Assembly (NCBI GenBank): GCA_964443875.1
Contig: CAYUET010000002.1
Span: 70,082-134,081, forward strand
Direction: 5' to 3'
Origin: an uncultured bacterium
Lineage (GTDB): Bacteria > Auribacterota > JAFGBW01
Length of the DNA: 64,000 nucleotides
Positions 6,448 through 46,406 of the stretch are shown here, in pieces; the first letter of the stretch is position 1; each line of letters opens with the position of its first letter. The notes beneath the pieces are model-generated. The model was not told the DNA's origin. It worked only from the letters and a program-made list of their open reading frames with translations, and made no database searches. Made by a program: the position numbers and the translations under genes.

Positions 6448-6514
6448 AGATTACCTTTTTTTTAAGAGCATATTCTTTTAAAGAGTAAACAAAATCAGGT
6501 TATGCGTATGCTTA

Positions 6515-7486: not shown

Positions 7487-7493
7487 TCTGGCC

Positions 7494-10890: not shown

Positions 10891-10896
10891 AATGTA

Positions 10897-18500: not shown

Positions 18501-18635
18501 GAGCATATCCATGGCCATGAGCCCGGGAACCGCTTCGTCATAATAGACGTGTCCGAAGCAGGGAAGTTTCCAGAAGATGAAACGAAAGGCAAGGCCTGTT
18601 GCAATCAGAGCAAGTGAAGAGACCCATTTCAACAT
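15534..18635 (-). CDS. GT-C family glycosyltransferase, ArnT/PMT-like (GT39/GT83-type) with a large C-terminal periplasmic domain
   Basis: About 1,033 aa. TM1 is followed by YYDEAVPGLMAMDMLEGRFSPFYWGAPYLGSLE, carrying the DE motif and a PYxxKPPL-like loop of ArnT/PMT. It has at least 10 predicted TM helices. The roughly 550-aa C-terminus is a discoidin-like beta-rich domain. The ATG at 18635 lies 7 nt after the ubiA stop. The longer ORF from 18677 uses GTG and overlaps ubiA. Confidence 0.75.
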   Translation of the reverse strand: MLKWVSSLALIATGLAFRFIFWKLPCFGHVYYDEAVPGLMAMDMLEGRFSPFYWGAPYLGSLESILAAFFFSLFSTDTFWLRMSPFISSLFLIAGMLILSRKMNGNRFPVYTALFLTIPPLVFNEYSLSPMGGYMQTIALGTWFLILLLQALKNSEASFPLVSISIAGLIAGIGFWTFMMILPFLGAGALVFFIRLRSEYRGKALVLLSLFFFIGSLPWWMGNIENGWLTFRMKGGLAHFSVYFDQLVNFINISSMLFGRCREFAHHPWGPLITGLTSLVWISAFMSFFFSFRNRLKNRQETNAVSLMLFSGLLFFAACFIFSQNGREQLSRYGLPLYVFLGIPFLSAFERFAAWKPVLHIPFLSILIVLVLPYNLAFMQFYAHDKKRMEGPEEVIRYLEQQGISKAYAHFTTAQSVSFESKKKIICSDFGGFRNIEFLKLVDDASKTALITDSRMNLPNPDALETQLKSLVCSYIRRDMGSYTVFHDFTFSPNAYEDISALLIPIQENKKAPFGQNLLDRHFSTLWTSPAEKNSSLTFNCQTPVALCRIELVSGTDVTSIPQGILVEGAQEAGQWLTLAQIPGYIPVFQEFNGNIRLLPNGHIDIRFKETPLRQIRLTLSGKNSWGIAELFVYKQHASLQPDKKEALSLIQSLNPQEKVFLPPALIPSVQKHLPGLTTPRLIQDKACYRDRYLFWDYNERVINPFGENGFLLESIHLNGLKQFFTDNHLPYSVHESQGWSYVSLPALAPLTDKTSLFLTRLTHPQILYDSSLHEIQLSYPLKPDTLLKKIRISLRNPDLIKLNDLKITLFNKGNILKKTPLCLDRWIWADGFIARKTDFQTDFLFSETLSADRVMIGIPELMLNSLTLKKIEAEMTNPLPEPPSLPDSKGWQKHPVNALFDGKAEINTIAFSSHLLKPSEYLMFYCSGKSLQKTLPPFNLFIHFLNSKGELLFQEDIQIHSPYSKNFDKNGILQFEHLIPVPKTLKDEANITALIGLCESDRPKRWKIKTKQPQENRALILKNFQISSMDSK

Positions 18636-18642
18636 GATGGAT

Positions 18643-19644
18643 TTACCATTGCCAGAGAGGCATGATTTGATTCTCACTGATGTTGAAAAGGGAGTAAAGG
18701 CCTGGAATTTTACACAGCATCAGGACAATAAAGAGAATGAGACAGAACAGTGTGAAAAAAACAAAATTACGTTCCCTGTAGAGTTTCTCCGGTGCCTGAA
18801 CCGGGCTGTCCGTTTTAAAGCCCAGATAGAGGTAGTAGGTGAGAAATCCTGAGAGGAAAGGAAGCATGAGAATGAGTTCCAGGTGGTAGCGCACCATGAA
18901 AATGCCGGCAAAAAGGCTTCCGGTGACAGCATAGAAGAAGACACTGAAAAGAAGCCGTTCAGGGGTGTAGTGCCGAAAGGATTTTCGGTAGGCTCCGGCT
19001 TTTCCTTCCTGTTTGATTTCCCGAAGTTCCGCAAAGCGCTTGAGGGCCATAAAAAAGGCCCCGTACATCCAGTAGGCGATGAAAAGGGATACCGGAGGAA
19101 AACGGTCCGGAATCAGAATAAACCAGCCCATCACGAGACGGATGGGGTTGTTTATGGATTCGGAAAGGACATCCAGGTAAGGGATTTCCTTGGTGCGGAA
19201 AGGGGAAATATTGTAGAACATTCCCATGATCCACAGGGAGACTGCGGCCCAGCCAAAGGGAATATTGATAGAGAAGGAGAGGCTTATGCCCACACAGGCA
19301 AGAAAGATCCATTCGGCATAACCCAGGGGAATATTGATCAGACCGGAGGGTACGGGTCTGAATTTTTTTTTGGGATGATAAAGGTCAAAGGGGGCATCCA
19401 GGATTTCATTAATCACATAGTTGCTTGAAGCCACAAGGCAGATGGCTGAAACGGAGAGCAGAAGTTTTAAGGGCGAAATGACTGAAAAATCCGGAATCAG
19501 AAAAAAAGCCAGAATAATGCCCAGCCCCATGAAAACGTTTTTAAACCAGTGATCCGGTCTTGCGATATCCACATAGGGCCCGAATTTTCCGAGTGTTTTA
19601 TAGCGGGGAATGGAGGATTTTTCACTTCCATCAATGGTTTTCAT
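18643..19644 (-). CDS. UbiA-family polyprenyl-phosphate 5-phosphoribosyltransferase (DPPR-synthase type)
   Basis: 333 aa with 8-9 TM helices. NEILDAPFDLYHPKKKFRPVPSG matches the NDxxDxxxD...HPxKRFRPIAAG signature of mycobacterial Rv3806c-type decaprenyl-phosphate phosphoribosyltransferases. A second Asp-rich region is present. Confidence 0.75.
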   Translation of the reverse strand: MKTIDGSEKSSIPRYKTLGKFGPYVDIARPDHWFKNVFMGLGIILAFFLIPDFSVISPLKLLLSVSAICLVASSNYVINEILDAPFDLYHPKKKFRPVPSGLINIPLGYAEWIFLACVGISLSFSINIPFGWAAVSLWIMGMFYNISPFRTKEIPYLDVLSESINNPIRLVMGWFILIPDRFPPVSLFIAYWMYGAFFMALKRFAELREIKQEGKAGAYRKSFRHYTPERLLFSVFFYAVTGSLFAGIFMVRYHLELILMLPFLSGFLTYYLYLGFKTDSPVQAPEKLYRERNFVFFTLFCLILFIVLMLCKIPGLYSLFNISENQIMPLWQW

Positions 19645-19809
19645 GATAAGCCCCGGACCTTTCTAAAAAGGATGTTTCCTTGAAGTATAAAAATGTTGTT
19701 TATCAACACTTTTTTCAGATACGTCAATAAAATTATATGCTGGAATTCGCTTTACAAAAAGTTCTGTTTGAAGGAATCTTAAAAACTAATTTTTAAGGAA
19801 TTTAAATAA
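19645..19809. promoter_or_regulatory. AT-rich divergent promoter region between the ubiA-GT-C operon and the GT-C paralog
   Basis: The spacer is 165 bp with no ORF and contains TGTTG-N5-CAACA. The downstream ATG has an AAGGAA RBS. Confidence 0.4.
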
Positions 19810-22800
19810 ATGTTTTTGTTCAAACGGAGCCTTTTCTGGACCTCAGCAGCAATTCTTGTCTTTGTTTTTACACGGCTGTTTTTCATCTCTCTTCCCTCCT
19901 ATGCGGTCACTTATTTTGATGAGGCGATCACCGGGCTTATGGGGATGCATCTTTTAAGGGGTGAGTTTCCCGTATTTTACTGGGGTTGTCCCTATCTAGG
20001 GCCTCTGGAGGCCCTGTTTGCAGCTCTTTTTTTTCTTATCACCGGAGAAGCCTCCACTTTTGCCTTAAGGCTTTCCCCACTCCTGGCCTACCTGATCTAT
20101 GGAGGAGCCCTTTTAGCCCAGGCAAGACTCACCATGAAAAAGGAAGTCTTTTATTTCTGTTTTCTGTTTCTGATTTTTCCGCCTTATTATCTTCTTCATT
20201 TTTCTCTGACCGCCATCGGGGATTACATGAATACGGTCATGCTTGGAAGTTTAATGATACTTCTGACCTCTATCATGATTACGGATGAAAAACGGCTGAA
20301 TTTACGGAATGTTTTTCTTCTGGGGCTTCTTTCGGGTTTTTCCTTCTGGACTTTTATTCAGACTGCGCCTGTGATTCTGGCCTGCCATTTGATTCTGTTT
20401 CTCCGGATGCGTTTCAGCTATCCGGGAATCCCTCTGCTTCTTTCCTTTCTGGGATTTGTTCTGGGGAGTCTTCCCTTCTGGATGTGGAACTGGAATAACG
20501 ATTTTTTAACCTTTACCATGAAAGTCACGGGGGCTGACCCGGGAAGTTTTCCGGGTCATGCCCGTAATTATTATGAGGTGTTAAAACTACTTCTGGGTAA
20601 CTATTCCCTTCAGCCCCAGGGATACAGGACTTTTACCGCAGGCCTTGCCGCTTTTTTTCTGATCGCGGTTCCCTGTCTTCTTTTTTCCGGACAGGGTCTT
20701 TTTGCGAGACTTAAGAAACCTGATCCTCTTCTCCTTTTGATTGTTGCTTTTACCGGAAACTCTCTGGCTTATATTGTAAGCTCGCATGGAGATCTTAAAC
20801 TCCCGCGTTATCTTCTTCCTCTTTATTCCTCGCTTCCTGTTCTTCTGCCTTTTGCCTTATCTTTTCTGCTTAAAGGGCGTTATTTTTTTGTTTTTTCAAC
20901 AGGGCTTCTTCTTTTGATGAGCCTTCCTGAAAATATCCGCTTTACGAAAAGTAATCTCGATCCTGCCTATATCAATCGTTTCACGCCCAGAAGAGCGGAA
21001 TTAAATGAGTTTTTTGATTATCTGGGACAGAATAATATCCGGCATCTTTATGGGGCCTACTGTTTTACTCAGATATTGACTTTTGAGTCCAAAAAATCGG
21101 TGACTGCTGCGGATTATTCGGGTTTCAGAAATATGAGTTACCTGCGGGAGGCGGACAATGACCCTCGCACCGGGCTTGCCGCAGAGGATCTTCTGGGGGC
21201 TCCGGACAGTGATTCCCTGGAATCCACAATCAAGCTTTTGACGAGGAAATATCAGAAGAAAAAATGCGGCCGTTTTACTGTTTTTCATGATTTTAAAATT
21301 AATGACGCCTCTGATGCCCCTTTGCCCTCCGGCAGCATTCAGAGTATTTCGGTATGTGAACAGCAGGAACGGAAAAATTTACTGAATGACAGGATTTTTG
21401 AAACCTTCTGGGAAACGCAAAAGCCCATGACCGGCAAAGAGTGGATAACTTTGACTTTTGTGAAACCGGTGAGGGTGACGCGGCTTCTTCTGATTCCGGG
21501 GACGGATTATCTTGCCTTTCCAAGAGGGCTTCGCATGGAAGGAACGGATGTCCGCGGGCACAGGATCAAGCTTGCAGAGGCGAAATCCATTTGCGGATCT
21601 TTCAAGGTTTTTCATGGAAAGCCAAGGCTTTTTGGGAAAGGGGAAATTGAGATCCGTCTGGACAAAGAAACAGAGCTTTCTTCTGTCACACTTTTTCAGA
21701 CCGGGGAGGATCGCTTTTTTCATTGGAAAATAGGGGAGATTATCCCTTTTGAACAGAAACAGGAAAATTCTCTTTTAATCAGCTCTGTGCCTGAAATTCC
21801 GGAGGACAGATTTCTTGTTACAACCCCGGAGCTATATCTCAAACATTATTATAAAACTTTCCATGATCAGCAAACCATTCCTCTTTATCCGCCCATGCTG
21901 ACTTATCTGCACTGGTCAAGGGTATGGGACTATGACACTCCCAAAAGGTATTTGAATATGGATTCTGATCTTTTGTTTATTTTGCCGCCTGATCATTGGG
22001 AGTATTTTAAAAATTATCTTCAGTCCCATGAAATAGCCTATAGTCTGAAGGAAACGCACAACCTCGTTACTGTGCAAACACAGTCCTGCGGGATTCCGAA
22101 AGATCGAAAATACATCCCTTTGCTGCCCCGGACAAAATGGGCAGAGACTTTTAATCAAAATCCGGTATTTGAAGCTTTTTTTCCTGAGCCTGTCTTGCTT
22201 TATGGTTTTAAACTGGCAAAACCGCCATGTGGATTTCAGTGGAAAGATCTGATGATTGAGATTCTGGATTCGGGCGGAGAATGGAAGTCTGTTGCTTTTA
22301 AAACTCATGAGGCCTATTGGACGGATGAAGTGATTCTGGAATCCTGCCGTGAGGGCTCAGAGGTACATTTTGAAAAACCGGTTCCTGCTCAAAAAGTTCG
22401 GTTTATTCTTCATGGCCTTTACAAAACACCTCAGGATCTTGAGGATTTCTGCAAATCAGAGATTATTGGGGATTTTAAATCCGGGAAGGACGAGTATCTG
22501 GTAAAAAAGACTGAGGCTTCGGGTTCTGTGGCAATTTTTGAAGAAACCCTTTCTCTGGATGATTTTTCTCTTAATCCTTCAAACCCTCATCCGGGCGGGT
22601 ATCTTGAGGTTCATGCCCGTTTTTCATGGCTTAAAAAGAAGAGAAAGAATATGGCTTCTACTTTTTTCCTTCATGCCCTGGACTCCACAGGGTATAAAGT
22701 TTTTCAGCTGGACAGAGATCTGGATTTTGGTAGAAACCCTCAGGATTTAAAAAAACCTTTTGAGAGGAAATATTTTATAAAAATCCCTGAATCCATTAAG

Positions 22801-22950
22801 GAGAAGTCTTTAAGGGTGATTATCGGGCTTTATGATCAGCGAACGGGTAAGCGTTCCAAGCCCTCTTCTTCTCATCCTGTCGACATGAGGTCTGTTGAGC
22901 TGGGGGAGATTTTTATTGCCCCTGATGTTCACAGACCAGAAGATCAGTGA
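19810..22950 (+). CDS. GT-C family glycosyltransferase, ArnT/PMT-like, paralog of 15534..18635
   Basis: 1,046 aa. YFDEAITGLMGMHLLRGEFPVFYWGCPYLGPLE aligns residue by residue with the paralog. Homology continues through the C-terminal domain (FESKKSV...YSGFRNMSYLRE versus FESKKKI...FGGFRNIEFLK). Confidence 0.75.
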   Translation: MFLFKRSLFWTSAAILVFVFTRLFFISLPSYAVTYFDEAITGLMGMHLLRGEFPVFYWGCPYLGPLEALFAALFFLITGEASTFALRLSPLLAYLIYGGALLAQARLTMKKEVFYFCFLFLIFPPYYLLHFSLTAIGDYMNTVMLGSLMILLTSIMITDEKRLNLRNVFLLGLLSGFSFWTFIQTAPVILACHLILFLRMRFSYPGIPLLLSFLGFVLGSLPFWMWNWNNDFLTFTMKVTGADPGSFPGHARNYYEVLKLLLGNYSLQPQGYRTFTAGLAAFFLIAVPCLLFSGQGLFARLKKPDPLLLLIVAFTGNSLAYIVSSHGDLKLPRYLLPLYSSLPVLLPFALSFLLKGRYFFVFSTGLLLLMSLPENIRFTKSNLDPAYINRFTPRRAELNEFFDYLGQNNIRHLYGAYCFTQILTFESKKSVTAADYSGFRNMSYLREADNDPRTGLAAEDLLGAPDSDSLESTIKLLTRKYQKKKCGRFTVFHDFKINDASDAPLPSGSIQSISVCEQQERKNLLNDRIFETFWETQKPMTGKEWITLTFVKPVRVTRLLLIPGTDYLAFPRGLRMEGTDVRGHRIKLAEAKSICGSFKVFHGKPRLFGKGEIEIRLDKETELSSVTLFQTGEDRFFHWKIGEIIPFEQKQENSLLISSVPEIPEDRFLVTTPELYLKHYYKTFHDQQTIPLYPPMLTYLHWSRVWDYDTPKRYLNMDSDLLFILPPDHWEYFKNYLQSHEIAYSLKETHNLVTVQTQSCGIPKDRKYIPLLPRTKWAETFNQNPVFEAFFPEPVLLYGFKLAKPPCGFQWKDLMIEILDSGGEWKSVAFKTHEAYWTDEVILESCREGSEVHFEKPVPAQKVRFILHGLYKTPQDLEDFCKSEIIGDFKSGKDEYLVKKTEASGSVAIFEETLSLDDFSLNPSNPHPGGYLEVHARFSWLKKKRKNMASTFFLHALDSTGYKVFQLDRDLDFGRNPQDLKKPFERKYFIKIPESIKEKSLRVIIGLYDQRTGKRSKPSSSHPVDMRSVELGEIFIAPDVHRPEDQ

Positions 22951-24493
22951 AAGTTTTGACCGGGACAAAGGTGCTTTCCGGGATTTCTGCAAAAAGGGTA
23001 TTCCAGTAATACATGCCTCCGTTCCATAAGCCCGGAAGCTCAAGAGCTTTCAGGTTTCTGCCTTCATGCGATTTAATCGAGATGATCCCGCCTTCCGGTT
23101 CCGAAAAATGAGTCAGATCATAGGCCTCCCCTTTGTAGTTTTTGAGGCCCAGGACCATGAAAACCGGATTAAAATGTGTGGAGCTTCTGACCATGGACAT
23201 TACTTTATCGGAGTTCAGATCGATCTGTGAAGTTTCCACAATCTGAAGAGAACGTGATTTATCGTGGTTCTCCACCCAGAAGGGGAGTCCTCCGATTTCT
23301 CCCTTGTTGCGCACAAGTCCGCAAATCCTCACGGGTCGGTTGAGTGTATGGCGCAGATAGTTTATCTGGTTTTCAAGGCTTTCAGAATGAAGAGCGGGCG
23401 GCGGTGTAAGGGAGAGTGTTTCTTTGATGAATTTAACAATCTGCTGCACATGGCTTTTATCGGGTTTGGTGAGATCCAGTTCTTTTTGATAATTGAAAAT
23501 TTTTTCCTGGATTCCGAGTAAAAGTCCGGCAAGCATTCTCATGTTTTGAATGGAAGGTGTTTTCGCTGAAAGGGTCTGCACATTATCAATGTTTTTAATG
23601 AAGACAATATCGTACTCCCCGGAGACTTGGCTGAGATTCCGGAGAAGAGCGCCGTGTCCCGCAGGGCGTAAGACAAGGCGGCCTTTTGAATCACGGAAAG
23701 GCTTGTTTTCCAGATCCAGAGCGAGGGTATCGGAAGATTTGGATTGAACGGAGAAGCTGACGGAGCTGGGCCGCAGGACCTCTGTTTCGGCGTTTTTACG
23801 GCACTGAATATATTCTTTCAGGGGATCTAAAAAATCTTCGGAAATAGTGAAATGTACATGGGAATTTTTTGGAAAGGGACTGCAGGTTAAAGCAGCTTCG
23901 AAAAGATGTTCATCCACAGGGCTTAAAGATTGCTGGTCATTTTTATGAAATTTGATCAGGGCCTTGGGTATTTTTCCGTAGTTCAGTCCTTTGGGGGTCA
24001 GGAGGATATCGAGTATTTCTCTATAGTGTTCGCGGGAGATGAGTTCTTTTACTGTTTTTCCTGTTTGTTCCCTGAGACAAGCCTGGAGGTCTTCAAAAAA
24101 GGCGAATTTCTGAATGTTGTTCAGAAATTGTTCAAGGCTCAAAAAGTCCGGATCTTTGTTGATGACTCCGTGGTAGAAGACGGAACGGCTGATGGAGGGA
24201 TAGCTGTTGAGCAGGGAAAGCAGGGGTTTGAACATCCGGGAAGCCGCGCCGGAGGCGGGGATAAAGTGGAGCCAGAGTTTTGACTGGATTTCTCTTTTAA
24301 AATAGTTTTCAGCATCCTGAATTTCTGCAGGATTCAGCATTACAATGCCTTCCCCAGGCGTACAGGGCTTGATTAGTTTTAACGGTGAGAATCCGCGGGT
24401 AATTGTTTGAATCTGGGATTCAATCTGGGGCATATTTAATCCGTGTTCTTCAACTTGCCGGATATCAGCCTGAGAAAAGGAATAGTCTGTCAA
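22913..24493 (-). CDS. UDP-sugar pyrophosphorylase-like nucleotidyltransferase (UDPGP-like, resembles DUF4301 family)
   Basis: 526 aa. IPASGAASRMF parallels the LNGGLGTxMG motif of UGPase/UAP family enzymes. LRPAGHGALLRNL parallels their PDGNGGLYRAL motif. The 3' end overlaps the convergent GT-C gene by 38 nt. Confidence 0.5.
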   Translation of the reverse strand: MTDYSFSQADIRQVEEHGLNMPQIESQIQTITRGFSPLKLIKPCTPGEGIVMLNPAEIQDAENYFKREIQSKLWLHFIPASGAASRMFKPLLSLLNSYPSISRSVFYHGVINKDPDFLSLEQFLNNIQKFAFFEDLQACLREQTGKTVKELISREHYREILDILLTPKGLNYGKIPKALIKFHKNDQQSLSPVDEHLFEAALTCSPFPKNSHVHFTISEDFLDPLKEYIQCRKNAETEVLRPSSVSFSVQSKSSDTLALDLENKPFRDSKGRLVLRPAGHGALLRNLSQVSGEYDIVFIKNIDNVQTLSAKTPSIQNMRMLAGLLLGIQEKIFNYQKELDLTKPDKSHVQQIVKFIKETLSLTPPPALHSESLENQINYLRHTLNRPVRICGLVRNKGEIGGLPFWVENHDKSRSLQIVETSQIDLNSDKVMSMVRSSTHFNPVFMVLGLKNYKGEAYDLTHFSEPEGGIISIKSHEGRNLKALELPGLWNGGMYYWNTLFAEIPESTFVPVKTFTDLLVCEHQGQ

Positions 24494-24687
24494 AGCGGTT
24501 TCCTTTTGGATGTTGAAAAATAATATAAAGATCCCTCTGTCAAAGAGTCAAGAAAGAAAGAAGAAATCAGTGTTCAATGTAAAGATGCTTATGAATTGAA
24601 TTTCTATTGCTTTGTTGTTTTTTGGGTAATATAAAAATTAAAAAAATGAATGTATAAAAAATACAAAATATAATTATTTTTATTAAA

Positions 24688-24710: not shown

Positions 24711-24840
24711 TTAGACCATAAAAGCCTTAAATGTTAATATTATGTTGTTTTTTTGAAAAAAATATTGTAATGTATTTTTTGATGATGTTGATCAGAATTT
24801 AATGAATGGCAGGGATCTTAAGAAAGAGGAGCTGAAAAGG

Positions 24841-26229
24841 ATGAAAACAACAAAAAGATTATCTGTTAAAGGGAGTGCGCTGATTGTATCTATTATTTTT
24901 TCAACCCTTATCGGGATGGGGACTGTTGCGCTTCAGAATTTTCAATACCTGACACACAAGACGAACCATAAATCTTTTGAGGGTAATAAAGCCCGCTATA
25001 TGGCGGAAGCTGGTATTATGCTTGCCCTTGATGAGCTTAATAACCAGACTTCCTCCCCTTTTTCCGGAGCCGGGGATTTTTACTGGGCTTCTTCAGGCGG
25101 TAATATTTATACCCTCTCCCGTTCGGATATCGGGAGTGTGAATGTGACGGTTGATTATACAGACCCCAATTCCGTGGTGATTAAAAGTTATGGATTCTAT
25201 CAGAGTGTAAGAAAAGGTTTAGAAGTTAAGGCTATTAAGGCAGGCTCTTCAGCCATTAATCCCATTTTCCCGGGAGCCATTGCCGCCCAGTCCGACATTG
25301 TGACCATGAATTCTTTTACCGTGGATTCCTTTGCAAATGGGGTCTATGACGCTCTTCATCCGGGCTACAACGGGCATGTGTTTACCAAAGATGACAGTAT
25401 CAATTTAAAATCAGGAACCATTGTCAGAGGTCATGTTTACGCCCCTCCAAGTCCTGTTCCGGTTTTCAATACCGGAGAAAATTCCAACGGTAATGTGTAC
25501 TGGACCGCTGCAGATGAAACTGCAGCACATAATTGCGGCGGGAGTACAGGGGTTTTTACAGAGTTTAAACCGGTCGCTATTCCTCCTCATCTTTTAATGA
25601 CAGGCTCGCCTACTGCAGTTCTGTCAAGCGGGGGGAGTTATGGAAGCGGTCATTATACAGGGGCAACGGGTCTTGGAAACTTGACTTTTACCGGCGGTTT
25701 TTATAAAATAGATGGGGATATGGCTCTTGGCAACAGCAAGGTGCTGACCATTAAAGGAAACAGTGATATCTATATCACAGGAGACTTGTCTCTGGGGAAC
25801 GGAGCGATGATAATCAATTATACCCTGAAAGCGGATGGATCTGATCCTGACACCTTGCCTGACGTGGATAAGGTTTATACCCTGAGAATTTATGTGGACG
25901 GCGGACTCACCTTTTCTCAGGGCAATGAAGTGAATATGTACTGCAATTATGATGTCACCAAGCTTCAGCTTTACGGATGCGGGAACGGCTATTTTGCAAC
26001 CCCAGCTAAAAAAATCAATATTAAAAACGGAGGGTCATTTTTCGGATTTGTCTATGCCCCGTATTATGAGGTGGAATTTAATAATGCCAATGAGGTTTTC
26101 GGCGCCTTTGCCTCGTATCAGATTATTCCGAAAAACGGATCAAAGATTCATTTTGATGAACGTTTATGGGGCTTTGTGGACGGGGTGGCCCCGGATAAAT
26201 ACGGATTAAGCGGATGGGAGGAAATATGA
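24841..26229 (+). CDS. PilX-like minor pilin (type IV pilus or pseudopilus assembly protein, PilX_N domain)
   Basis: The N-terminus KGSALIVSIIFSTLIGMGTVALQN...KARYMAEAGIMLALDEL fits the PilX N-terminal domain. The ATG at 24841 has an AGAGGAG RBS. An alternative upstream ATG lies at 24802. Confidence 0.65.
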   Translation: MKTTKRLSVKGSALIVSIIFSTLIGMGTVALQNFQYLTHKTNHKSFEGNKARYMAEAGIMLALDELNNQTSSPFSGAGDFYWASSGGNIYTLSRSDIGSVNVTVDYTDPNSVVIKSYGFYQSVRKGLEVKAIKAGSSAINPIFPGAIAAQSDIVTMNSFTVDSFANGVYDALHPGYNGHVFTKDDSINLKSGTIVRGHVYAPPSPVPVFNTGENSNGNVYWTAADETAAHNCGGSTGVFTEFKPVAIPPHLLMTGSPTAVLSSGGSYGSGHYTGATGLGNLTFTGGFYKIDGDMALGNSKVLTIKGNSDIYITGDLSLGNGAMIINYTLKADGSDPDTLPDVDKVYTLRIYVDGGLTFSQGNEVNMYCNYDVTKLQLYGCGNGYFATPAKKINIKNGGSFFGFVYAPYYEVEFNNANEVFGAFASYQIIPKNGSKIHFDERLWGFVDGVAPDKYGLSGWEEI

Positions 26230-26421
26230 AGAAGACAAACCAGACGCATTATTTGTTTAAAAGCGGATTTCACCCGAATATGGACCGGCATTGCAAATAT
26301 TCGGGAGCCAGGGTCAGGCCTATGCCGCATAGGACTGGCATGCGTAAAAAATAATCGCTTTTAAAAAAATAATAAGAGTGATCTGTGCCGTTTTACCTTT
26401 TAAACCTGAAAGGTCGAAACC

Positions 26422-26880
26422 ATGGGGATATTATGTAATCATCACGATTCCAGGATCCGGATTAAGGGATTTTCCCTGATCGAACTCCTGATCGCCATTT
26501 TTATATTTTTTCTGATTTTTTCAGGAGTCATGAAAAGTCTTGCCTCTATTTTCACTGTTCAAAAGGATTCCCGTGAACTGGCGATCGCCTCTCAGATTCT
26601 AGGTGATATTGCCGAAAAAATCACCTATATGAGAAATACGGCCGGATGGGATGTGATTGATTCTTCCACCCTGGTTTTTAACTCAACGACGGTTGCTGAA
26701 TTGAATTCTCTCCCCGGGAGTTCGGTCAATGTTGCAGTTGTACCTTATAAGGATGCATCCGGCGCAGATACGAATACTTTGAAAAGGATTACGATTACGC
26801 TGAATTGGACTTCCAAAAATGGGAAAGCAAAATCAGAGGCCTTTGAAATGGTGTTGTCAAAACCGCCGTCAGGAATATGA
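26422..26880 (+). CDS. Prepilin-type N-terminal cleavage/methylation domain protein (PilV-like pseudopilin)
   Basis: KGFSLIELLIAIFIFFLIF is a class III signal (G|FxLIE) followed by a hydrophobic helix. The protein is 152 aa. Confidence 0.7.
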   Translation: MGILCNHHDSRIRIKGFSLIELLIAIFIFFLIFSGVMKSLASIFTVQKDSRELAIASQILGDIAEKITYMRNTAGWDVIDSSTLVFNSTTVAELNSLPGSSVNVAVVPYKDASGADTNTLKRITITLNWTSKNGKAKSEAFEMVLSKPPSGI

Positions 26881-26884
26881 GTTT

Positions 26885-27508
26885 ATGAAAAAAAGAGCTT
26901 TTTCAATAGTGGAGCTGCTTATTTCTCTGACTCTGCTTGCGGTGGTGAGTATAGGTTTTTTTTCTGCCTTCCGGTTTTACCAGGCAAGAGGGCTTGCCTC
27001 CACCCAGAAAGCGATAAATCTTAATGCCATGCGTTCCTCTCTGGATAAGCTCAAACAGGATCTCCTGATTTCCAAAGGGCTTTATAACAATGATTATTCA
27101 AAAGTTCACGCCGTGAATGACCCCTTTAATGTTTATCAGACAAAAGATAATCAGCTGATTGTCAAAATTCCTTCGGTTTATTCTACCAATGAGTTTATTG
27201 ATGTATCTGATCCGGAATATACCGATTATTATTTTTATTACTTATCCGGAGGCGAGCTCATCAGAAAAACATTCAGAAGCACAAAAACGGGTTCATCCCG
27301 GCCAACGGATGATTATATTCTTGCCAAAGGATTGAAATCCATTCGTTTCAGTGACGGATTACATACTTTAGGGACTCTTTCCAGCGAAAAGCTGTTGAGC
27401 ATCCGGCATATTCAGATTGTCATTACCGCAGAGGTGCAGAACACGCTGAACGGGACTCCCCAGACTGAAACATTGACCTTGAATGTTTCCTTTCGTAATT
27501 ATATGTAA
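26885..27508 (+). CDS. Prepilin-type N-terminal domain protein (PilW-like pseudopilin)
   Basis: MKKRAFSIVELLISLTLLAVVSIGFF has Ala rather than Gly at position -1. The ATG at 26885 was chosen over the longer ORF from 26819. Confidence 0.65.
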   Translation: MKKRAFSIVELLISLTLLAVVSIGFFSAFRFYQARGLASTQKAINLNAMRSSLDKLKQDLLISKGLYNNDYSKVHAVNDPFNVYQTKDNQLIVKIPSVYSTNEFIDVSDPEYTDYYFYYLSGGELIRKTFRSTKTGSSRPTDDYILAKGLKSIRFSDGLHTLGTLSSEKLLSIRHIQIVITAEVQNTLNGTPQTETLTLNVSFRNYM

Positions 27509-27684: not shown

Positions 27685-30600
27685 ATGGTGTTTTTTAAAA
27701 AACTGACAGTCCTCCTTTTTGCCTTTATTTTTCTTTTTGAGCAGGCTTTTTCAGTTTATGCAACCCCTTGTGTTTCAAATGATTCAGAGATGTCAAAACA
27801 GTGCCTTGCTCCAAATTCAGAGATGGGAGCCATCCATGTTAAGAAACTGTTTCTCAACACCCTGATAGAGGCCTGGCTTTATTATTCCCGGAATAAGGAC
27901 CCTGAAGGGGTAATGGACTGGAAAAAAATTCATTATCACCTTGTGAAAAACGGATTTAATATCAGGGAAATATCCGGAAGCAGTGAAAAGGACAGCTATG
28001 TCACCCTTTATTTTAAAACAATGAAGGGAACCACCCAGGAGGTCTCTTTTCATTTTGACAGAAAAGGAAAAAACCTGATCAAGCCTAAAATAACTTTTCC
28101 TCCGGACAAGGAGACCTATGCTTTTGGTTTCAATGAAGGGATTGAAAGCATGGATACCCGGATTCTTGATTTTCTTGAAACACCTGCTTTTGACGAGGAT
28201 CTCTGGGCTAATCAGCAGGAAAAGAAAAAAGAAACCCTTAGGGAAGTTAATAAAAACAGCACTCCTGAAAGTTCAACGCGCATTGCCGGAGCTGTCCTTG
28301 CCTATGCGGCGACTTTTTCAGCCCTTACTTTGCTTTTTTTATATGCGCCCTTTGGGCTTTATGCCCTGGGATCTGTACTTCTGATTGCTGTGATAACGGG
28401 GCTTATCACCATGGCTGAAACAGCCCTGATCAGCACGACAAGGGATGAAAAAGCGGTGGCGTATCTTCAGAAAGAGGCTAAGAAAGGGAACCGGTCCGCT
28501 AAGAAGGCGCTTGACCTTGTGAATAAAACCCATCAGAAACTTCCTACAATCACCCTGACTAAAAATCTGGTTGGTGTTCCGGGCGGAATCATGATTTCGG
28601 GTATTTCGAATTCTTTTATTTCACGCTATTTTACGGGCGGAATAGCGGCCCAGATTCTTGACAGGATTTTTTCAGTAGTCTTGACACTTGTTTTTACTGA
28701 ACAGATTCCCAAGGATATAGCTTCTGCGGATAAAAAGGTTTATATTGTCATGGCCATGGCCCCTGTTTTTCCTTTTTTTGAAAAGATTTTGTGGCCGGTG
28801 ATAGCCCTTTTGAACAGATTAAATCATTTTTCTCTTCAGTTTGTTTCAGCTCTGTTTTTTCTGGACCGTTCCTCGCAGAAAAAACAAAGGACTTATGCTA
28901 AAAAAATGGGGAGAATTTTTGAAAATGGCTGGCTTGAAGGAACGCTTTCTGACCTGGAATACCATTTTCTTGACGGAGTTCTTGCCCTTGATTCTACAAC
29001 AGTCGGAGAGCTTTTTGCCAAAAGAGACTGGAGCTATACCCTCTTTTCGTTATCCCCGGAGCTAAGTATTTCTAAAGCCGTAGAAAAACTGGATGGAACA
29101 TTTTTTTCCTATATTCCGCTGATTGATAAATATGGTTCCTGTCACCAGGTTGTATCCAGAGAGGATATTCTTCTTCATAATCAAAAGAGGGTGACGCTGC
29201 AGAAAAAACTGGATTTTTTCCGGGATAGGAAAGAAAAATTGATGCATCACCTTGAAGTTCAGGAAGCTTCATTGAAAGAACTCCCGGAGGATGGACAAAT
29301 TCAAAGGCTGGTCTCTATTTATAAAAAACATATTCAGATTGCAGAAAAGAACTCCATGGAACTTGGATATCAGATTTCATCCCTGGAGTATAAAAATCTC
29401 CTGACTCTGGATCCTCTTCCTCATGTGATGATCAGTAAAGATCAGCCGGCGGGTGATGTGCTGAAATTTTTTCTTTCCGAATATCCACCGAAAATGGCGC
29501 TTATGGTGGATGCCCGTAAAAGGCCTGTTGGGGTGGTGACCCTGGAAGATATCATGGAATTTCTTTTTCAGCAGGAGATTTTTGATGAGACGGACATTGC
29601 CAAGAATTCTGGAAGCAGGGAAAGCCTCTCCCGGAAACCCATGCAGCTTATTTCGAATCCTGTAATTCAGAAAAACAGACGTCTGGCGGCAAGACTTCTT
29701 GAATTTAAAAAAACAAAGCCGGAAACTTCTGCATTGGATCATCGCTATGAAATTTCCCATCTGAAAAAGGAACTTGAATTTCTTTCTTCTGTTCAGATTG
29801 GTTTCCTTTTTGACCTTTTATGGGCAGATGCGTTTGGCAACCGTAAAATACAGCCTTTTATCTATTCCTGCAATATGGAGGGTTATCATGTCCTTGCCGG
29901 ATGGTTTCAGCAAAAAAAAGAGTATGAAGATCTTTTCATTCTGCTGAGAAAGGCATTTAAAGAAATCAAGCGTATGAATTCAGGGGTTCCCGCCGCACAT
30001 AATTTTCATCAGATTTACAATGACTTCTACAAATTGATCCGCTATGCCCAGATTGGAAATCCCCAGAAGGATCCCCGGATTGATTTTCTCCTTAAGGAAC
30101 CAGTGCTTCAGAAAACGGCCGCTTTTTTAATGAACAGGAATGAAGATTATTTGAAAGATAATCTGATCCGTCTGAAAGAAATGTCCCAGATTGCCGAATC
30201 CACTCAAAGTTACCATCCCCGGAGTTTTTTTAGAAAAATACAGCCTTTCCTCACCTCCGGAATGATTGCTTTTCTGATCGGGGGAGTTGTGGCTTTGGGA
30301 TTCCTGATCAGTTCACAGATGGGCGGTTTTGTTCTTGTGACCCTGACGCTTACGTTTTTATCCGGATTGATCTCTGCAATGGAAGCGGCGGTCTTTTCCG
30401 TCAACAGGGAATCAGTTGAAAACTTGAGTTATTCAGGGGATCCTCTGGCTTTCCTTCTCAAGGATATCCTTGAAAACCGGCAGAAATATATTCCGACCAC
30501 TGTATTTTTTGATACTCTGATTAAAATTCCCGGAGGGATCCTTTTGAAATCCGCATCCCTTCCCATACTCGGGGAGCTGGGAAGCTGGTTTTTTTCCACC

Positions 30601-31494
30601 CTGTGGTTTACTGTTTTCGTCAAAGTCATTCCGAAATTTTTAGGTGTAAGTTTTTCTCTTTCCGTTTCAAAAGTAGCGGCTCCTATTCTTAAATTTTTAA
30701 GAGCAGTTTTCTACCCTGTTATTTTTTTAATGCAGAAACTTACTTTGTTTTTTAAATTGTATCTCAAGGCGCTTACCTTTGGGAAAATTGATTTTATTGC
30801 CCCTGCCCATCAGAAGGAGAGCGTTGAGATTTATAACCAGCAAAGGCAGCAGATCAACCGCGTTTTTGAGTCGGAAAAACAGGAGGCTCTTGCCAGCGAA
30901 CCTGACTCACCTGTTTATAAAGAAAAGAAGACTACGCTGGGTCTTCTTGAAAAGGGTCTTGCCTTTTTCGGTGAGGTTCCGGGAGTTGTTACTGTTGCAG
31001 ACCTATTGAACATCAAAGCTCAGCAGAAATCCCTTCCGAAAATTTTTGATCTGCCTTTTGATATTACGATCGAAAAGGCCAACTCTGCTATTCAGAATTG
31101 TCCTTTTTCCAGAATTCTTCTCTATGACCGTGTTATCAACGGTAAAATGAATTACATCGGATGTGTATTCAAGGAAGATATCCTTCAGGCCTATACGGAA
31201 AAGAACAGAAGGGGAGCTCCCCTTTCGAGTCTTTTATATACCCTGGTTCCTAAAATTTCTCTTTCCTCCCCGGCAAAGGATTTGCTGAAAAAGTTTCTGG
31301 CTGTGGGAACAGCCCATCTTTCCATTGTGGAGGATGGGGAGGGAAATCCTGTTGCCGTTCTTTCTCTGGAGGATGTTATGAAATATATGCTGACCCCGAA
31401 AAATGCGGAAACACGGGTAAGAGAAAATGTACCAATCCCCGCTGAAATTTCAGAAATGATTTCCCCTTATCACCCGGAAAAACACGCGGCTTAA
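27685..31494 (+). CDS. Large membrane protein with a tandem duplication of the DUF21 (CNNM/CorC-type) transmembrane domain plus CBS domains
   Basis: 1,269 aa. It has a signal peptide, a roughly 200-aa soluble N-domain, a first DUF21 (ITGLITMAETALISTTRDE...TEQIPKDIA) with a CBS pair (VGVVTLEDIMEFLFQQEIFDE), a second DUF21 (LISAMEAAVFSVNRESVENL...VKVIPKFLG) and a terminal CBS (VAVLSLEDVMKYML). Confidence 0.7.
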   Translation: MVFFKKLTVLLFAFIFLFEQAFSVYATPCVSNDSEMSKQCLAPNSEMGAIHVKKLFLNTLIEAWLYYSRNKDPEGVMDWKKIHYHLVKNGFNIREISGSSEKDSYVTLYFKTMKGTTQEVSFHFDRKGKNLIKPKITFPPDKETYAFGFNEGIESMDTRILDFLETPAFDEDLWANQQEKKKETLREVNKNSTPESSTRIAGAVLAYAATFSALTLLFLYAPFGLYALGSVLLIAVITGLITMAETALISTTRDEKAVAYLQKEAKKGNRSAKKALDLVNKTHQKLPTITLTKNLVGVPGGIMISGISNSFISRYFTGGIAAQILDRIFSVVLTLVFTEQIPKDIASADKKVYIVMAMAPVFPFFEKILWPVIALLNRLNHFSLQFVSALFFLDRSSQKKQRTYAKKMGRIFENGWLEGTLSDLEYHFLDGVLALDSTTVGELFAKRDWSYTLFSLSPELSISKAVEKLDGTFFSYIPLIDKYGSCHQVVSREDILLHNQKRVTLQKKLDFFRDRKEKLMHHLEVQEASLKELPEDGQIQRLVSIYKKHIQIAEKNSMELGYQISSLEYKNLLTLDPLPHVMISKDQPAGDVLKFFLSEYPPKMALMVDARKRPVGVVTLEDIMEFLFQQEIFDETDIAKNSGSRESLSRKPMQLISNPVIQKNRRLAARLLEFKKTKPETSALDHRYEISHLKKELEFLSSVQIGFLFDLLWADAFGNRKIQPFIYSCNMEGYHVLAGWFQQKKEYEDLFILLRKAFKEIKRMNSGVPAAHNFHQIYNDFYKLIRYAQIGNPQKDPRIDFLLKEPVLQKTAAFLMNRNEDYLKDNLIRLKEMSQIAESTQSYHPRSFFRKIQPFLTSGMIAFLIGGVVALGFLISSQMGGFVLVTLTLTFLSGLISAMEAAVFSVNRESVENLSYSGDPLAFLLKDILENRQKYIPTTVFFDTLIKIPGGILLKSASLPILGELGSWFFSTLWFTVFVKVIPKFLGVSFSLSVSKVAAPILKFLRAVFYPVIFLMQKLTLFFKLYLKALTFGKIDFIAPAHQKESVEIYNQQRQQINRVFESEKQEALASEPDSPVYKEKKTTLGLLEKGLAFFGEVPGVVTVADLLNIKAQQKSLPKIFDLPFDITIEKANSAIQNCPFSRILLYDRVINGKMNYIGCVFKEDILQAYTEKNRRGAPLSSLLYTLVPKISLSSPAKDLLKKFLAVGTAHLSIVEDGEGNPVAVLSLEDVMKYMLTPKNAETRVRENVPIPAEISEMISPYHPEKHAA

Positions 31495-46351: not shown

Positions 46352-46406
46352 TATATTCTCCTTTTTATATAAATAGTCCGGATATTTAGGGATTTTTTTG
46401 GCTCAA

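What the first reader, a model, noticed from the sequence alone, without database searches (positions are those of the whole stretch)
22913..24493. UDPGP-like nucleotidyltransferase (DUF4301-like) convergently overlapping the GT-C gene
The 526-aa protein has two motifs matching the catalytic loops of UTP-sugar-1-phosphate uridylyltransferases. IPASGAASRMF parallels NGGLGTxMG, and LRPAGHGALLRNL parallels PDGNGGLYRAL. Its overall sequence does not match UGPase closely and resembles the uncharacterised DUF4301 family in length and N-terminal pattern.

Its 3' end overlaps the 3' end of the GT-C2 gene by 38 bp. That tight convergent arrangement suggests linked function and possibly antisense interference. 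It could supply the activated sugar or nucleotide precursor for the lipid-linked donor.
Basis: partly seen in the sequence, partly recalled or inferred. Interest (0 to 1): 0.55.

Follow-up and report, generated by a model that had tools for sequence, protein, structure and literature searches.

The report
DUF4301 enzyme with UDP-sugar pyrophosphorylase fold
The gene is a real, full-length member of the large uncharacterised bacterial family DUF4301, whose fold and catalytic motifs match UDP-sugar pyrophosphorylases, so it almost certainly joins a nucleotide to a phosphorylated small molecule; nothing outside its own close relatives ties it to the neighbouring membrane glycosyltransferase.

Summary
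The ORF at 22913-24493 (-) encodes 526 aa from a TTG start with a Shine-Dalgarno sequence. Its 3' end overlaps the convergent 1046-aa gene by 38 bp.

The neighbour is a genuine GT-C enzyme (AftD/Emb-like fold). The proposed functional link is not supported. None of 84 homologous loci carries a GT-C or UbiA gene, GT-C/UbiA modules occur elsewhere without DUF4301, and the gene has a promoter-like site of its own.

The strongest functional clue comes from other genomes. In Flavobacteriaceae, DUF4301 is fused or translationally coupled to a NadR-type ribosylnicotinamide-kinase domain that lacks NadR's adenylyltransferase domain, next to pnuC. That suggests a kinase-then-nucleotidyltransferase salvage route, possibly NMN to NAD. 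The substrate is still unknown. The window's clade also carries unusual acceptor-pocket substitutions.

The parts
22913..24493 (-). DUF4301 coding sequence, 526 aa plus TAA stop, TTG start
   Evidence: PF14134 E 1.2e-173, full length
24501..24551 (-). Own expression signals: sigma-70-like TTGACT-18-TATATT (24551-24522) and AGGA Shine-Dalgarno (24504-24501), 7 nt before the TTG. They lie in a 308-bp AT-rich divergent intergenic region.
   Evidence: These are consensus matches only; promoter-like counts are not above shuffled expectation.
24284..24493 (-). N-terminal helix/strand domain, residues 1-70, with conserved D10, Q13, G18, G34, G49
24227..24265 (-). Nucleotide-binding glycine-rich loop FIPASGAASRMFK (residues 77-89). 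It corresponds to GGxGT(R/T)(L/M) of UAP/UGP; R86 corresponds to AGX1 R115.
   Evidence: Invariant. The motif correspondence is by inspection, using the PDB-verified AGX1 and UGP sequences.
23984..24226 (-). Helical insertion 1 (residues 90-170, six helices). It separates the glycine loop from the PK lysine and is absent from UDPGP enzymes.
   Evidence: Secondary structure. The hhalign alignment resumes at residue 164, before PK.
23945..23968 (-). PKALIKFH (residues 176-183). P176-K177 aligns with the catalytic PK of UAP (AGX1 P121-K122).
23744..23755 (-). FSVQ (residues 247-250). Q250 aligns with the uracil-contacting Gln of UGP (FNQS) and AGX1 (Q196).
   Evidence: invariant S248 and Q250
23645..23668 (-). 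RPAGHGAL (residues 276-283), equivalent to PPGHGD of UGP and PDGNGG of UAP
   Evidence: invariant
23582..23596 (-). KNIDN (residues 300-304), equivalent to N(S/I)DN of UGP and CVDN of UAP (metal/ribose site)
   Evidence: invariant K300, N301, D303, N304
23342..23560 (-). Helical insertion 2 (residues 312-384), with no counterpart in UDPGP
23159..23302 (-). Predicted acceptor-binding loops: GEIGGLPFW (398-406), IVETSQ (418-423; E420 aligns with AGX1 E303) and HFNPVF (440-445; N442 aligns with AGX1 N327). In this clade P400I, G403L, D445F and C448L depart from near-invariant family residues.
22937..22969 (-). FVPVKTFTDLL (residues 509-519). K513 aligns with the catalytic C-terminal Lys of UGP (FLPVK..DLL) and AGX1 K407. 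The protein ends 13 residues later, so there is no C-terminal beta-helix domain.
22913..22950 (.). 38-bp convergent overlap of the two 3' ends. It covers DUF4301 codons 515-526 and the last 12 codons plus stop of the GT-C gene.
   Evidence: a 35-bp equivalent occurs in L085
19810..22950 (+). Context only: 1046-aa GT-C glycosyltransferase with discoidin/CBM32-like domains. It is a paralog of 15534-18677 (-), and the pair flanks a UbiA/DPPR-synthase-like gene at 18643-19644 (-).

Best explanation
The gene encodes a soluble cytoplasmic nucleotidyltransferase of the DUF4301 family. I read this family as a deeply divergent bacterial branch of the UDPGP-type (GT-A-like) pyrophosphorylases.

Proposed mechanism, inferred from conserved catalytic residues:
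- An NTP binds under the glycine-rich loop SGAASRM (R86) and the displaced PK lysine (K177).
- The base is read by Q250 and the RPxGHG loop.
- Mg2+ and the ribose sit at KNIDN (D303).
- The phosphate of a phosphorylated acceptor, held by E420, N442 and K513, attacks the alpha-phosphate. This releases PPi and gives an NMP-phospho-acceptor (an NDP-X compound).

The gene looks like a stand-alone transcription unit and is not part of the neighbouring UbiA/GT-C glycan module. The 38-bp overlap is a by-product of compact gene packing.

The acceptor is not established. Family-wide context points to a salvage route of transporter, then kinase, then nucleotidyltransferase. In Flavobacteriaceae, DUF4301 is fused or translationally coupled to a NadR-type ribosylnicotinamide-kinase domain that lacks NadR's own adenylyltransferase domain, downstream of pnuC. 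My leading single candidate is therefore NMN + ATP to NAD+ + PPi, or a closely analogous riboside-phosphate. A classical UTP:sugar-1-phosphate reaction is the main alternative.

The window's own clade has altered acceptor-pocket residues and may use a different acceptor from the rest of the family.
For: Shown by computation:
- Full-length DUF4301 match.
- More than 8000 homologs at 90% clustering and 3830 clusters at 50%.
- Confident model without templates (pLDDT 90.4).
- Foldseek top 50 are all UDPGP enzymes, E down to 8.6e-12.
- Weak but repeated PF01704 hits: 8 of 41 members, and a precomputed hit on P0166.
- Co-linear motif alignments to PDB-verified UGP and AGX1 sequences.
- All these motif residues are invariant in both solo and fused members.
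- No hydrophobic segments.
- A family member was detected as protein in the rumen metaproteome (PMC7035244).

Independence from the GT-C gene.

Kinase coupling:
- More than 100 clusters of about 699-aa AAA_28::DUF4301 fusions across Flavobacteriaceae genera.
- Unfused versions overlap by 4 nt, and pnuC overlaps the kinase by 46 nt.
- The same arrangement is seen in loci L088 and L089.
- The kinase matches only the RNK part of NadR models and structures.

Inferred: the residue roles, taken from published AGX1/UGP structures recalled from knowledge; the identity of the acceptor; and isofunctionality across the family.
Against: - No sequence search gives a statistically significant link to UDPGP: the best PDB profile hit has E 0.94 and hhalign P is 0.0015-0.0065. 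Homology therefore rests on the predicted fold plus motif co-linearity.
- Kinase/pnuC coupling is confined to one family, Flavobacteriaceae. Across 100 operon-like partners in 53 loci there are 164 different Pfam families and no universal partner.
- The same Flavobacteriaceae operon carries a YkoF/Thiamine_BP-like protein. A Bacteroidales locus has pnuT-TPK beside DUF4301. Two Desulfobacterales-type loci (L014, L023) have a queuosine-precursor-type transporter 54 and 16 bp downstream, and a third (L021) carries one about 4.5 kb away. The salvaged compound could therefore be something other than nicotinamide riboside.
- One singleton fusion carries a domain that JGI names mannose-6-phosphate isomerase, which points to sugar metabolism.
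- Conserved Q250, E420 and N442 match uracil- and sugar-binding residues of UDP-sugar enzymes.
- All known NMN adenylyltransferases use a different fold.
- The window contains no pnuC or RNK gene among the ORFs of at least 150 aa scanned.
Confidence: 0.72

Rival explanations
1. Classical housekeeping UDP-sugar pyrophosphorylase: UTP plus glucose-1-P, GlcNAc-1-P or another hexose-1-P gives the UDP-sugar. It could be the enzyme that supplies UDP-glucose in lineages such as Bacteroidota, whose GT3 glycogen synthase uses UDP-glucose.
For: - The nearest structures are all UTP:sugar-1-P enzymes.
- Residues aligned with the AGX1 uracil and sugar ligands (Q196, G290, E303, N327, K407) are invariant.
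- The lone-gene context resembles galU-type housekeeping genes.
- Prevotella bryantii and other Bacteroidetes use UDP-glucose-dependent glycogen synthase (PMC7935935; PMC11046441).
- One locus places the gene beside glycogen phosphorylase.
- One singleton fusion carries a domain that JGI names mannose-6-phosphate isomerase.
Against: - DUF4301 shows no recurrent association with sugar or glycan genes in 84 loci.
- The only abundant fusion partner is a nucleoside-kinase-type P-loop domain, which does not make sugar-1-phosphates.
- I could not test whether DUF4301 genomes lack galU.
Confidence: 0.25
2. One reading: the enzyme makes an activated sugar or nucleotide precursor for the adjacent UbiA/GT-C lipid-linked glycan pathway, and the 3' overlap couples the two genes by antisense interference.
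For: - The convergent overlap with the GT-C paralog is kept in the one informative close relative (35 bp, L085).
- The window clade differs from the rest of the family at 18 of 152 highly conserved columns. These include non-conservative changes in predicted acceptor loops (P400I, G403L, D445F, C448L), consistent with a clade-specific substrate.
Against: - No GT-C or UbiA homolog lies near DUF4301 in 84 other loci.
- The GT-C/UbiA(+HAD) module exists without DUF4301.
- The two genes are on opposite strands and DUF4301 has its own promoter-like site.
- DPPR-synthase-type UbiA enzymes use PRPP, so no NDP-sugar is required (established knowledge of that family).
- The relative that keeps the arrangement is 72-82% identical, so synteny alone explains it.
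- Co-directional overlaps of 35-62 bp occur elsewhere in this window.
Confidence: 0.08
3. Nucleotidylation of a thiamine-related or other vitamin-type phosphate. The products could be adenosine thiamine di- or triphosphate, or a deazapurine or other salvaged precursor, rather than NAD or a sugar nucleotide.
For: - A YkoF/Thiamine_BP-family protein passes the Pfam cut-off in the Flavobacteriaceae operon.
- pnuT-like plus thiamine pyrophosphokinase lie immediately upstream of DUF4301 in L062.
- A Vut_1 queuosine-precursor-type transporter lies 16-54 bp downstream in two Desulfobacterales-type loci, L014 and L023.
- The TIGR01528 PnuC model scores the thiamine-context transporter as well as the others, so it does not separate the two.
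Against: - No TPP or preQ1 riboswitch was found in these loci.
- The fused kinase is most similar to NadR ribosylnicotinamide kinase.
- The L062 adjacency has a 470-bp gap and is a single case.
Confidence: 0.08
4. Non-catalytic protein: a regulatory or binding pseudo-enzyme that keeps only the fold.
For: In one locus the gene sits between STAS and anti-sigma-kinase-like genes with overlapping ends.
Against: Every catalytic motif of the pyrophosphorylase fold is invariant across phyla. That is the signature of an active enzyme.
Confidence: 0.03

Closest known systems
Eukaryotic-type UDP-sugar pyrophosphorylases (Pfam UDPGP, PF01704): UAP1/AGX1, UGPase, USP
   Same: - Same order of motifs: glycine loop, PK, Q, PxGHG, NxDN, GG loop, E, FN, FxPVK..DLL.
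- The expected chemistry is therefore the same: NTP plus phospho-acceptor gives NDP-X plus PPi.
   Different: - Below the Pfam threshold for PF01704; 10-18% identity.
- The glycine loop reads SGAASRM instead of GGxGTxM.
- An 81-residue helical insertion separates the loop from the PK lysine, and a second insertion of about 73 residues follows NIDN.
- There is a distinct N-terminal domain and no C-terminal beta-helix or dimerisation domain.
- The family is bacterial, and its gene context shows no sugar-metabolism partners.
Bacterial NTP_transferase-type nucleotidyltransferases (GlmU N-domain, GalU, RmlA, IspD, MobA, CobY)
   Different: These are more distant than UDPGP. They are much smaller and lack the DUF4301 and UDPGP C-terminal lysine motif.
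NadR (bifunctional NMN adenylyltransferase plus ribosylnicotinamide kinase) with PnuC
   Same: Flavobacteriaceae operons and fusions combine pnuC, a NadR-type RNK domain and a nucleotidyltransferase, DUF4301. This is the same three-step logic as PnuC/NadR nicotinamide-riboside salvage.
   Different: - The nucleotidyltransferase part is DUF4301 (GT-A-like fold), not the HIGH-motif NMNAT domain.
- The domain order is reversed, with the kinase N-terminal.
- Activity on NMN is untested.
- The window gene has no kinase or pnuC partner.
Bifunctional kinase/pyrophosphorylase salvage enzymes (for example Bacteroides FKP fucokinase/GDP-fucose pyrophosphorylase, HldE)
   Same: A kinase fused to a nucleotidyltransferase that acts on the kinase's product.
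   Different: Those kinases are of the GHMP or ribokinase type and act on sugars. Here the kinase is a P-loop nucleoside-kinase type.

Membership tests
DUF4301 (Pfam PF14134) | Score above the Pfam gathering cut-off over the whole model | tested here: met
   579.1 bits against a cut-off of 27; protein residues 8-524 match model positions 2-507 of 507
DUF4301 (Pfam PF14134) | Family-invariant residues present | tested here: met
   All 76 invariant columns of the 41-sequence alignment are by definition shared, and they hold again when fusion proteins are included. The window clade departs at 18 of 152 columns that are at least 92% conserved in the rest of the family.
UDPGP uridylyltransferases (Pfam PF01704) | Score above the Pfam gathering cut-off | tested here: not met
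   The window protein gives no PF01704 hit even at E 10. Eight of 41 homologs give sub-threshold hits, best E 0.039.
UDPGP uridylyltransferases (Pfam PF01704) | Three-dimensional fold of the catalytic core | tested here: met
   [not shown]
UDPGP uridylyltransferases (Pfam PF01704) | Nucleotide-binding signature L(X)2GXGTXM(X)4PK | tested here: inconclusive
   The loop is PASGAASRM, with the equivalent of AGX1 R115 kept. PK is present and invariant but lies 89 residues downstream, after a helical insertion. The signature itself is recalled from the literature.
UDPGP uridylyltransferases (Pfam PF01704) | PxGHG/PDGNGG, NxDN, sugar-binding E and N, and C-terminal FxP(V/L)K lysine, in the same order | tested here: met
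   hmmsearch and hhalign alignments to PDB-verified yeast and Arabidopsis UGP and human AGX1. All of these residues are invariant.
UDPGP uridylyltransferases (Pfam PF01704) | C-terminal beta-helix or oligomerisation domain after the catalytic lysine | tested here: not met
   The protein ends 13 residues after K513.
UDPGP uridylyltransferases (Pfam PF01704) | UTP plus sugar-1-phosphate pyrophosphorylase activity | not testable with these tools
   Needs an enzyme assay.
NMN/NaMN adenylyltransferases (NadD, NadR, NadM; HIGH-motif fold, PF01467) | Rossmann-like HIGH-motif nucleotidyltransferase fold | tested here: not met
   No such Pfam or structural match; the fold is GT-A-like. Any NMNAT activity would be analogous, not homologous.
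GT-C glycosyltransferases (the neighbouring gene 19810-22950) | Multi-span N-terminal membrane domain with a conserved Asp in the first loop, GT-C fold, large periplasmic domain | tested here: met
   - About 10 hydrophobic segments in the first 360 residues.
- Invariant D37 in the YFDEA motif.
- Homologs carry PF13231 PMT_2 and PF00754.
- The model (pLDDT 74) best matches AftD, EmbB, EmbA/B, EmbC, AglB and STT3.
- The window protein itself has no PMT_2 Pfam hit.

The most novel reading that the evidence does not exclude
DUF4301 could be a previously unrecognised class of dinucleotide-cofactor synthase. The specific proposal is an NMN adenylyltransferase built on a UDP-sugar-pyrophosphorylase (GT-A-like) fold, replacing the HIGH-motif NMNAT domain of NadR. 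Flavobacteriaceae would then carry out PnuC import, RNK phosphorylation and DUF4301 adenylylation of nicotinamide riboside. Solo members such as the window's gene would recycle NMN, or, given the altered pocket in the window's clade, act on a related riboside phosphate.
Probability: 0.2. Interest if true: 0.8.

Novelty: new member of a known kind. Interest (0 to 1): 0.42.

Why it matters
DUF4301 is a large family: thousands of clusters across Bacteroidota (including Prevotella and Segatella of the gut and rumen), Desulfobacterota, Calditrichota, Ignavibacteria, Binatia and others. I found no published function for it.

Placing it firmly among UDPGP-type nucleotidyltransferases, with a residue-level active-site map, turns a DUF into an assayable enzyme. 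The abundant natural fusion to a NadR-type ribosylnicotinamide kinase gives a concrete and cheap experiment. If that experiment is positive, it would reveal a non-orthologous NAD-salvage enzyme in major marine and gut bacterial groups. If it instead shows a UDP-sugar enzyme, that could be a source of UDP-glucose for bacteria whose glycogen synthase uses UDP-glucose.

For this window specifically, the result is mostly a clarification. The gene is an ordinary, divergent member of the family, and its overlap with the GT-C gene should not be read as a pathway link.

Tried and rejected
- **Direct sequence links to solved structures.** phmmer of the protein gave only a spurious aspartylglucosaminidase hit at E 0.19. 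The family profile gave yeast Ugp1 at E 0.94. I used this only for motif mapping.
- **hhalign against small UDPGP alignments.** Results were weak (P 0.0015-0.0065). Global mode failed.
- **afdb50 fold library.** Not available.
- **Literature.** DUF4301 appears in one proteomics table only. PF14134 appears in no paper. Searches on PnuC/RNK in Bacteroidetes and on galU in Bacteroidetes gave background only.
- **Conserved neighbours.** All-against-all clustering of ORFs in 84 loci found no universal partner. RelA/SpoT (12 Prevotella-type loci), a TPR protein (8), and DUF368 plus shikimate dehydrogenase were judged lineage synteny.
- **Riboswitches.** None found in pnuC, Vut_1 or pnuT loci. No Rfam or tRNA hits in the window.
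- **Extra domains of rare long members.** P0400 (N-terminal extension) and P0334 (C-terminal extension) have no PDB sequence match and do not recur in other loci.
- **Source contig.** Look-up of the window's own contig failed, so the organism remains unidentified.
- **ENOX1 Pfam hit** (E 7.6e-4, below cut-off). It lies in helical insertion 2 and I dismissed it as noise.
Full report
**Observation.** The minus-strand ORF 22913-24493 exists exactly as described. It encodes 526 codons from a TTG start. An AGGA Shine-Dalgarno sequence lies 7 nt upstream. A sigma-70-like TTGACT-18-TATATT site lies at 24551-24522, inside a 308-bp AT-rich divergent intergenic region. The TTG start is supported because the conserved N-terminal residues D10, Q13 and G18 would be lost from the next ATG. 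The stop (complement of 22913-22915) and the TGA of the + strand ORF 19810-22950 give a 38-bp convergent overlap.

**Family.** The protein is a full-length member of Pfam DUF4301 (PF14134): E 1.2e-173, model positions 2-507 of 507. No NCBIfam model matches it.

- The family is large. More than 8000 clusters at 90% identity were returned. An exhaustive profile search of 1.84 billion representatives found 3830 clusters at 50% identity with E up to 1e-3, and 1509 with E up to 1e-30.
- Named members come from Bacteroidota (Prevotella, Segatella copri, Flavobacteriaceae, Saprospiraceae and others), Desulfobacterota, Calditrichia, Ignavibacteriaceae, Binatia and Verrucomicrobia.
- The window protein has only three close relatives (74-82% identity). 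Everything else is 45% or less, and it is its own 50% cluster representative.
- The only literature mention I found is a Prevotella ruminicola DUF4301 protein detected in a rumen metaproteome (PMC7035244). PF14134 appears in no indexed paper.

**Relation to UDPGP enzymes.** In an alignment of 41 members, 76 columns are invariant. They include FxPASGAAxRM, PK (176-177), H183, E195, HxT (214-216), SxQ (248-250), RPxGHG, KNIDN, C391, GG (401-402), E420, Q423, HFNPV, ELPGLWNG and FxPVK..DL.

Sequence-only searches barely see any solved structure. The profile's top PDB hit is yeast Ugp1 at E 0.94. It is not significant, but it aligns PxGHG..NxDN and LLExxQV..FN..FxPVK..DLL in the same order. PF01704 is the second commonest weak Pfam hit among members (8 of 41, best E 0.039). 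One fusion member carries a precomputed PF01704 hit.

An AlphaFold2 model built on the alignment is confident (pLDDT 90.4, pTM 0.89).

- Foldseek against the PDB returns only UDP-glucose and UDP-GlcNAc pyrophosphorylases in the top 50 (E 8.6e-12 downwards).

**Active-site map.** I recovered exact PDB sequences for Arabidopsis UGP (2icx, residues 80-373) and human AGX1 (1jv1, residues 107-437) by querying with recalled sequences. Both came back 100% identical. Profile alignments are statistically weak (P 0.0015-0.0065) but co-linear. They give the following correspondences.

| DUF4301 residue | Known-enzyme equivalent |
|---|---|
| P176-K177 | AGX1 P121-K122 |
| Q250 | AGX1 Q196; FNQS of UGP |
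| G279-H280 | AGX1 G222-N223; PPGHGD of UGP |
| D303 | AGX1 D253 |
| G401/G402 | AGX1 G290 |
| E420 | AGX1 E303 |
| N442 | AGX1 N327 |
| K513 | AGX1 K407; FLPVK of UGP |

By inspection, SGAASRM matches GGQGTRL of AGX1, which puts R86 opposite R115. The roles of these AGX1 residues (uracil, sugar and phosphate contacts) are recalled from the published structures and were not recomputed here.

The differences are clear.

- An 81-residue six-helix insertion (residues 90-170) separates the glycine loop from the PK lysine.
- A second helical insertion (residues 312-384) follows NIDN.
- There is a distinct N-terminal domain.
- The chain ends 13 residues after K513, so the C-terminal domain of UGP and UAP is absent.

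DUF4301 therefore works like a UDPGP pyrophosphorylase. It does not meet the PF01704 threshold and has a different architecture.

**The neighbour and the proposed link.** The 1046-aa product of 19810-22950 is a paralog (27% identity over the full length) of the 1047-aa product of 15534-18677. The two flank a UbiA-family gene most similar to decaprenyl-phosphate phosphoribosyltransferase models, although below their cut-offs.

- Only 14 homologs were found. Most carry PF13231 (PMT_2, GT-C) and PF00754 (discoidin).
- The protein has about ten hydrophobic segments in its first 360 residues and an invariant Asp in a YFDEA motif.
- Its model (pLDDT 74) best matches mycobacterial AftD, EmbB, EmbA/B and EmbC, then AglB and STT3, plus CBM32 domains.

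The label "GT-C gene" is therefore right. The functional link is not supported.

- tblastn with both GT-C paralogs, UbiA, the upstream GT4 and DUF7305 found nothing within 10 kb of DUF4301 in 84 loci.
- GT-C homologs elsewhere sit with UbiA and a HAD phosphatase, or with unrelated genes, and never with DUF4301.
- The convergent arrangement recurs only in an 82%-identical ortholog, whose neighbour is 72% identical, with a 35-bp overlap.
- The GT-C tail inside the overlap lies beyond the region that aligns with its paralog. The DUF4301 residues there (D517, L518, L519, H523) are conserved across the family. The overlap therefore looks like read-through of the GT-C ORF into a constrained 3' end.
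- Terminator-like and promoter-like counts do not exceed shuffled expectation.
- A DPPR-synthase-type pathway uses PRPP and needs no nucleotide sugar. This rests on established knowledge of that family, not on a test here.

**What the family context says.** Clustering about 1070 ORFs from 84 loci found no universal neighbour. One hundred operon-like partners from 53 loci hit 164 different Pfam families. The recurrent partners are lineage-specific.

- RelA/SpoT is divergent from DUF4301 in Prevotella-type loci.
- A TPR protein lies downstream in Bacteroidales.
- In all four Flavobacteriaceae loci, pnuC and a 187-aa AAA_28 gene lie upstream. The overlaps are 46 nt (pnuC with AAA_28) and 4 nt (AAA_28 with DUF4301).

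A search with the concatenated kinase and DUF4301 sequences then found more than 100 clusters of natural fusion proteins of about 699 aa (PF13521 plus PF14134). They come from Flagellimonas, Croceitalea, Maribacter, Arenibacter, Robiginitalea, Flaviramulus, Neotamlana and other genera. Two of them were confirmed in genomic context directly after pnuC.

The kinase matches only the ribosylnicotinamide-kinase part of NadR. It aligns to TIGR01526 positions 164-320, and to PDB 9x6f residues 172-321 (E 7e-19) and 1lw7 residues 172-325. NadR's own NMN adenylyltransferase domain is missing. Fused and solo DUF4301 domains share every catalytic invariant, which argues for one chemistry across the family.

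This is Rosetta-stone evidence that DUF4301 acts on the product of an RNK-like kinase. The missing step of PnuC/NadR-type salvage is precisely a nucleotidyl transfer, NMN plus ATP giving NAD+.

There are cautions.

- The coupling is confined to one bacterial family.
- The same operon encodes a YkoF/Thiamine_BP-family protein that passes the Pfam cut-off.
- A Bacteroidales locus has a pnuT-like gene plus thiamine pyrophosphokinase upstream of DUF4301.
- Two Desulfobacterales-type loci (L014, L023) have a queuosine-precursor-type transporter 54 and 16 bp downstream; a third (L021) has one about 4.5 kb away.
- No riboswitch was found in any of these loci.
- One singleton protein fuses DUF4301 to a domain that JGI names mannose-6-phosphate isomerase.
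- The conserved Gln, Glu and Asn residues match uracil and sugar ligands of UDP-sugar enzymes.

The common theme is salvage of an imported small molecule. The identity of that molecule is open.

**The window's own clade.** The window protein, P0002 and P0004 differ from the other 38 aligned members at 18 of 152 columns that are at least 92% conserved. These include non-conservative changes right after NIDN (P307T, D308L) and in the loops predicted to hold the acceptor: GEPGGGPFW becomes GEIGGLPFW, and HFNPVDLVC becomes HFNPVFMVL. All nucleotide and phosphate motifs are intact. This clade may therefore use a different acceptor.

The rest of the window is ordinary housekeeping and contains no pnuC or RNK gene among the ORFs scanned. 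It includes the end of valS, nadC, coaBC, ribF, truB, infB, nusA, dinB, a TRAP transporter, folE, dnaJ and others.

**Verdict.** The interpretation as a UDPGP-like nucleotidyltransferase of the DUF4301 family is supported by fold, motif invariance and co-linear alignments. The proposed coupling to the GT-C gene is not supported.

The gene is a divergent member of a catalogued but uncharacterised family. That family is a structurally distinct variant of a known enzyme kind, and its substrate is unknown. The most novel reading still open is that DUF4301 is a new-fold NMN adenylyltransferase or related dinucleotide synthase. I give this about 0.2, and it can be tested directly with the natural kinase fusions.

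Noticed in passing
window 15534-22950: Two paralogous 1046/1047-aa GT-C glycosyltransferases (AftD/Emb-like predicted fold, discoidin/CBM32 domains) flank a UbiA gene resembling decaprenyl-phosphate phosphoribosyltransferase. Only 14 homologs exist in 5.8 billion proteins. One homologous locus (L087) has UbiA-HAD-GT-C in a row. It looks like a polyprenyl-phospho-pentose glycan pathway outside Actinobacteria.
   Followed up: partly
L036, L050, L068, L083 at about 8800-11540; L088 and L089 at 5164-8115: Flavobacteriaceae operon: an 86-aa YkoF/Thiamine_BP-like protein, then pnuC, then a NadR-type ribosylnicotinamide-kinase domain, then DUF4301. The last two are fused into a protein of about 699 aa in more than 100 clusters from many genera. 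NadR's adenylyltransferase domain is absent.
   Followed up: yes
L090 1233-3962 (P0400); P0334: Rare long DUF4301 proteins. One 909-aa singleton has a 394-aa N-terminal extension that JGI names mannose-6-phosphate isomerase class I. One 834-aa protein has an unidentified 320-aa C-terminal extension. Neither extension matches a PDB sequence or recurs near DUF4301 elsewhere.
   Followed up: partly
L014 4928-5647; L023 1691-2398: In two Desulfobacterales-type loci a Vut_1/queuosine-precursor-type transporter lies 16-54 bp downstream of DUF4301 on the same strand. A third locus (L021) has one about 4.5 kb away.
   Followed up: partly
L062 95-3370: In a Bacteroidales contig a PnuC-family transporter and thiamine pyrophosphokinase (the pnuT-tnr3-type pair) lie 470 bp upstream of DUF4301. 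DUF4301 is followed by a TPR protein and a ComA (phosphosulfolactate synthase) homolog.
   Followed up: partly
L001 7301-10056: In a Thermodesulfobacteriota MAG, DUF4301 sits between a STAS-domain gene (7-nt overlap) and a HATPase_c_2 anti-sigma-kinase-like gene, after a large PAS/Hpt signalling cluster. It is convergent with glycogen phosphorylase.
   Followed up: no
window 22913-24493 (protein residues 190, 307-308, 318, 400, 403, 445, 448, 520): The window clade replaces family near-invariant residues (R190L, P307T, D308L, K318M, P400I, G403L, D445F, C448L, R520V), mostly in predicted acceptor-binding loops. This suggests a changed substrate.
   Followed up: partly
window 24802-27508: Divergent from DUF4301 lies a DUF7305 protein (475 aa), followed by two pilin-like proteins with N-terminal methylation motifs. 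The second overlaps the first by 62 bp.
   Followed up: no
window 27685-31494: An unusually long 1269-aa protein with two CNNM transmembrane stretches and CBS domains.
   Followed up: no
window 52744-60909: A giant 2721-aa protein with right-handed beta-helix/NosD, CarboxypepD_reg and SdrD B-like repeats. It is probably a surface or secreted protein.
   Followed up: no
window 37354-38895: A 513-aa protein with two CDP-alcohol phosphatidyltransferase stretches, which is a duplicated or fused architecture.
   Followed up: no
window 43613-49008: A GH94-like phosphorylase (912 aa) lies next to an 826-aa protein with a weak DUF1152 match.
   Followed up: no
window 1-64000: No tRNA genes and no Rfam family at gathering threshold anywhere in the 64 kb. 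The source contig look-up failed, so the organism could not be identified.
   Followed up: partly
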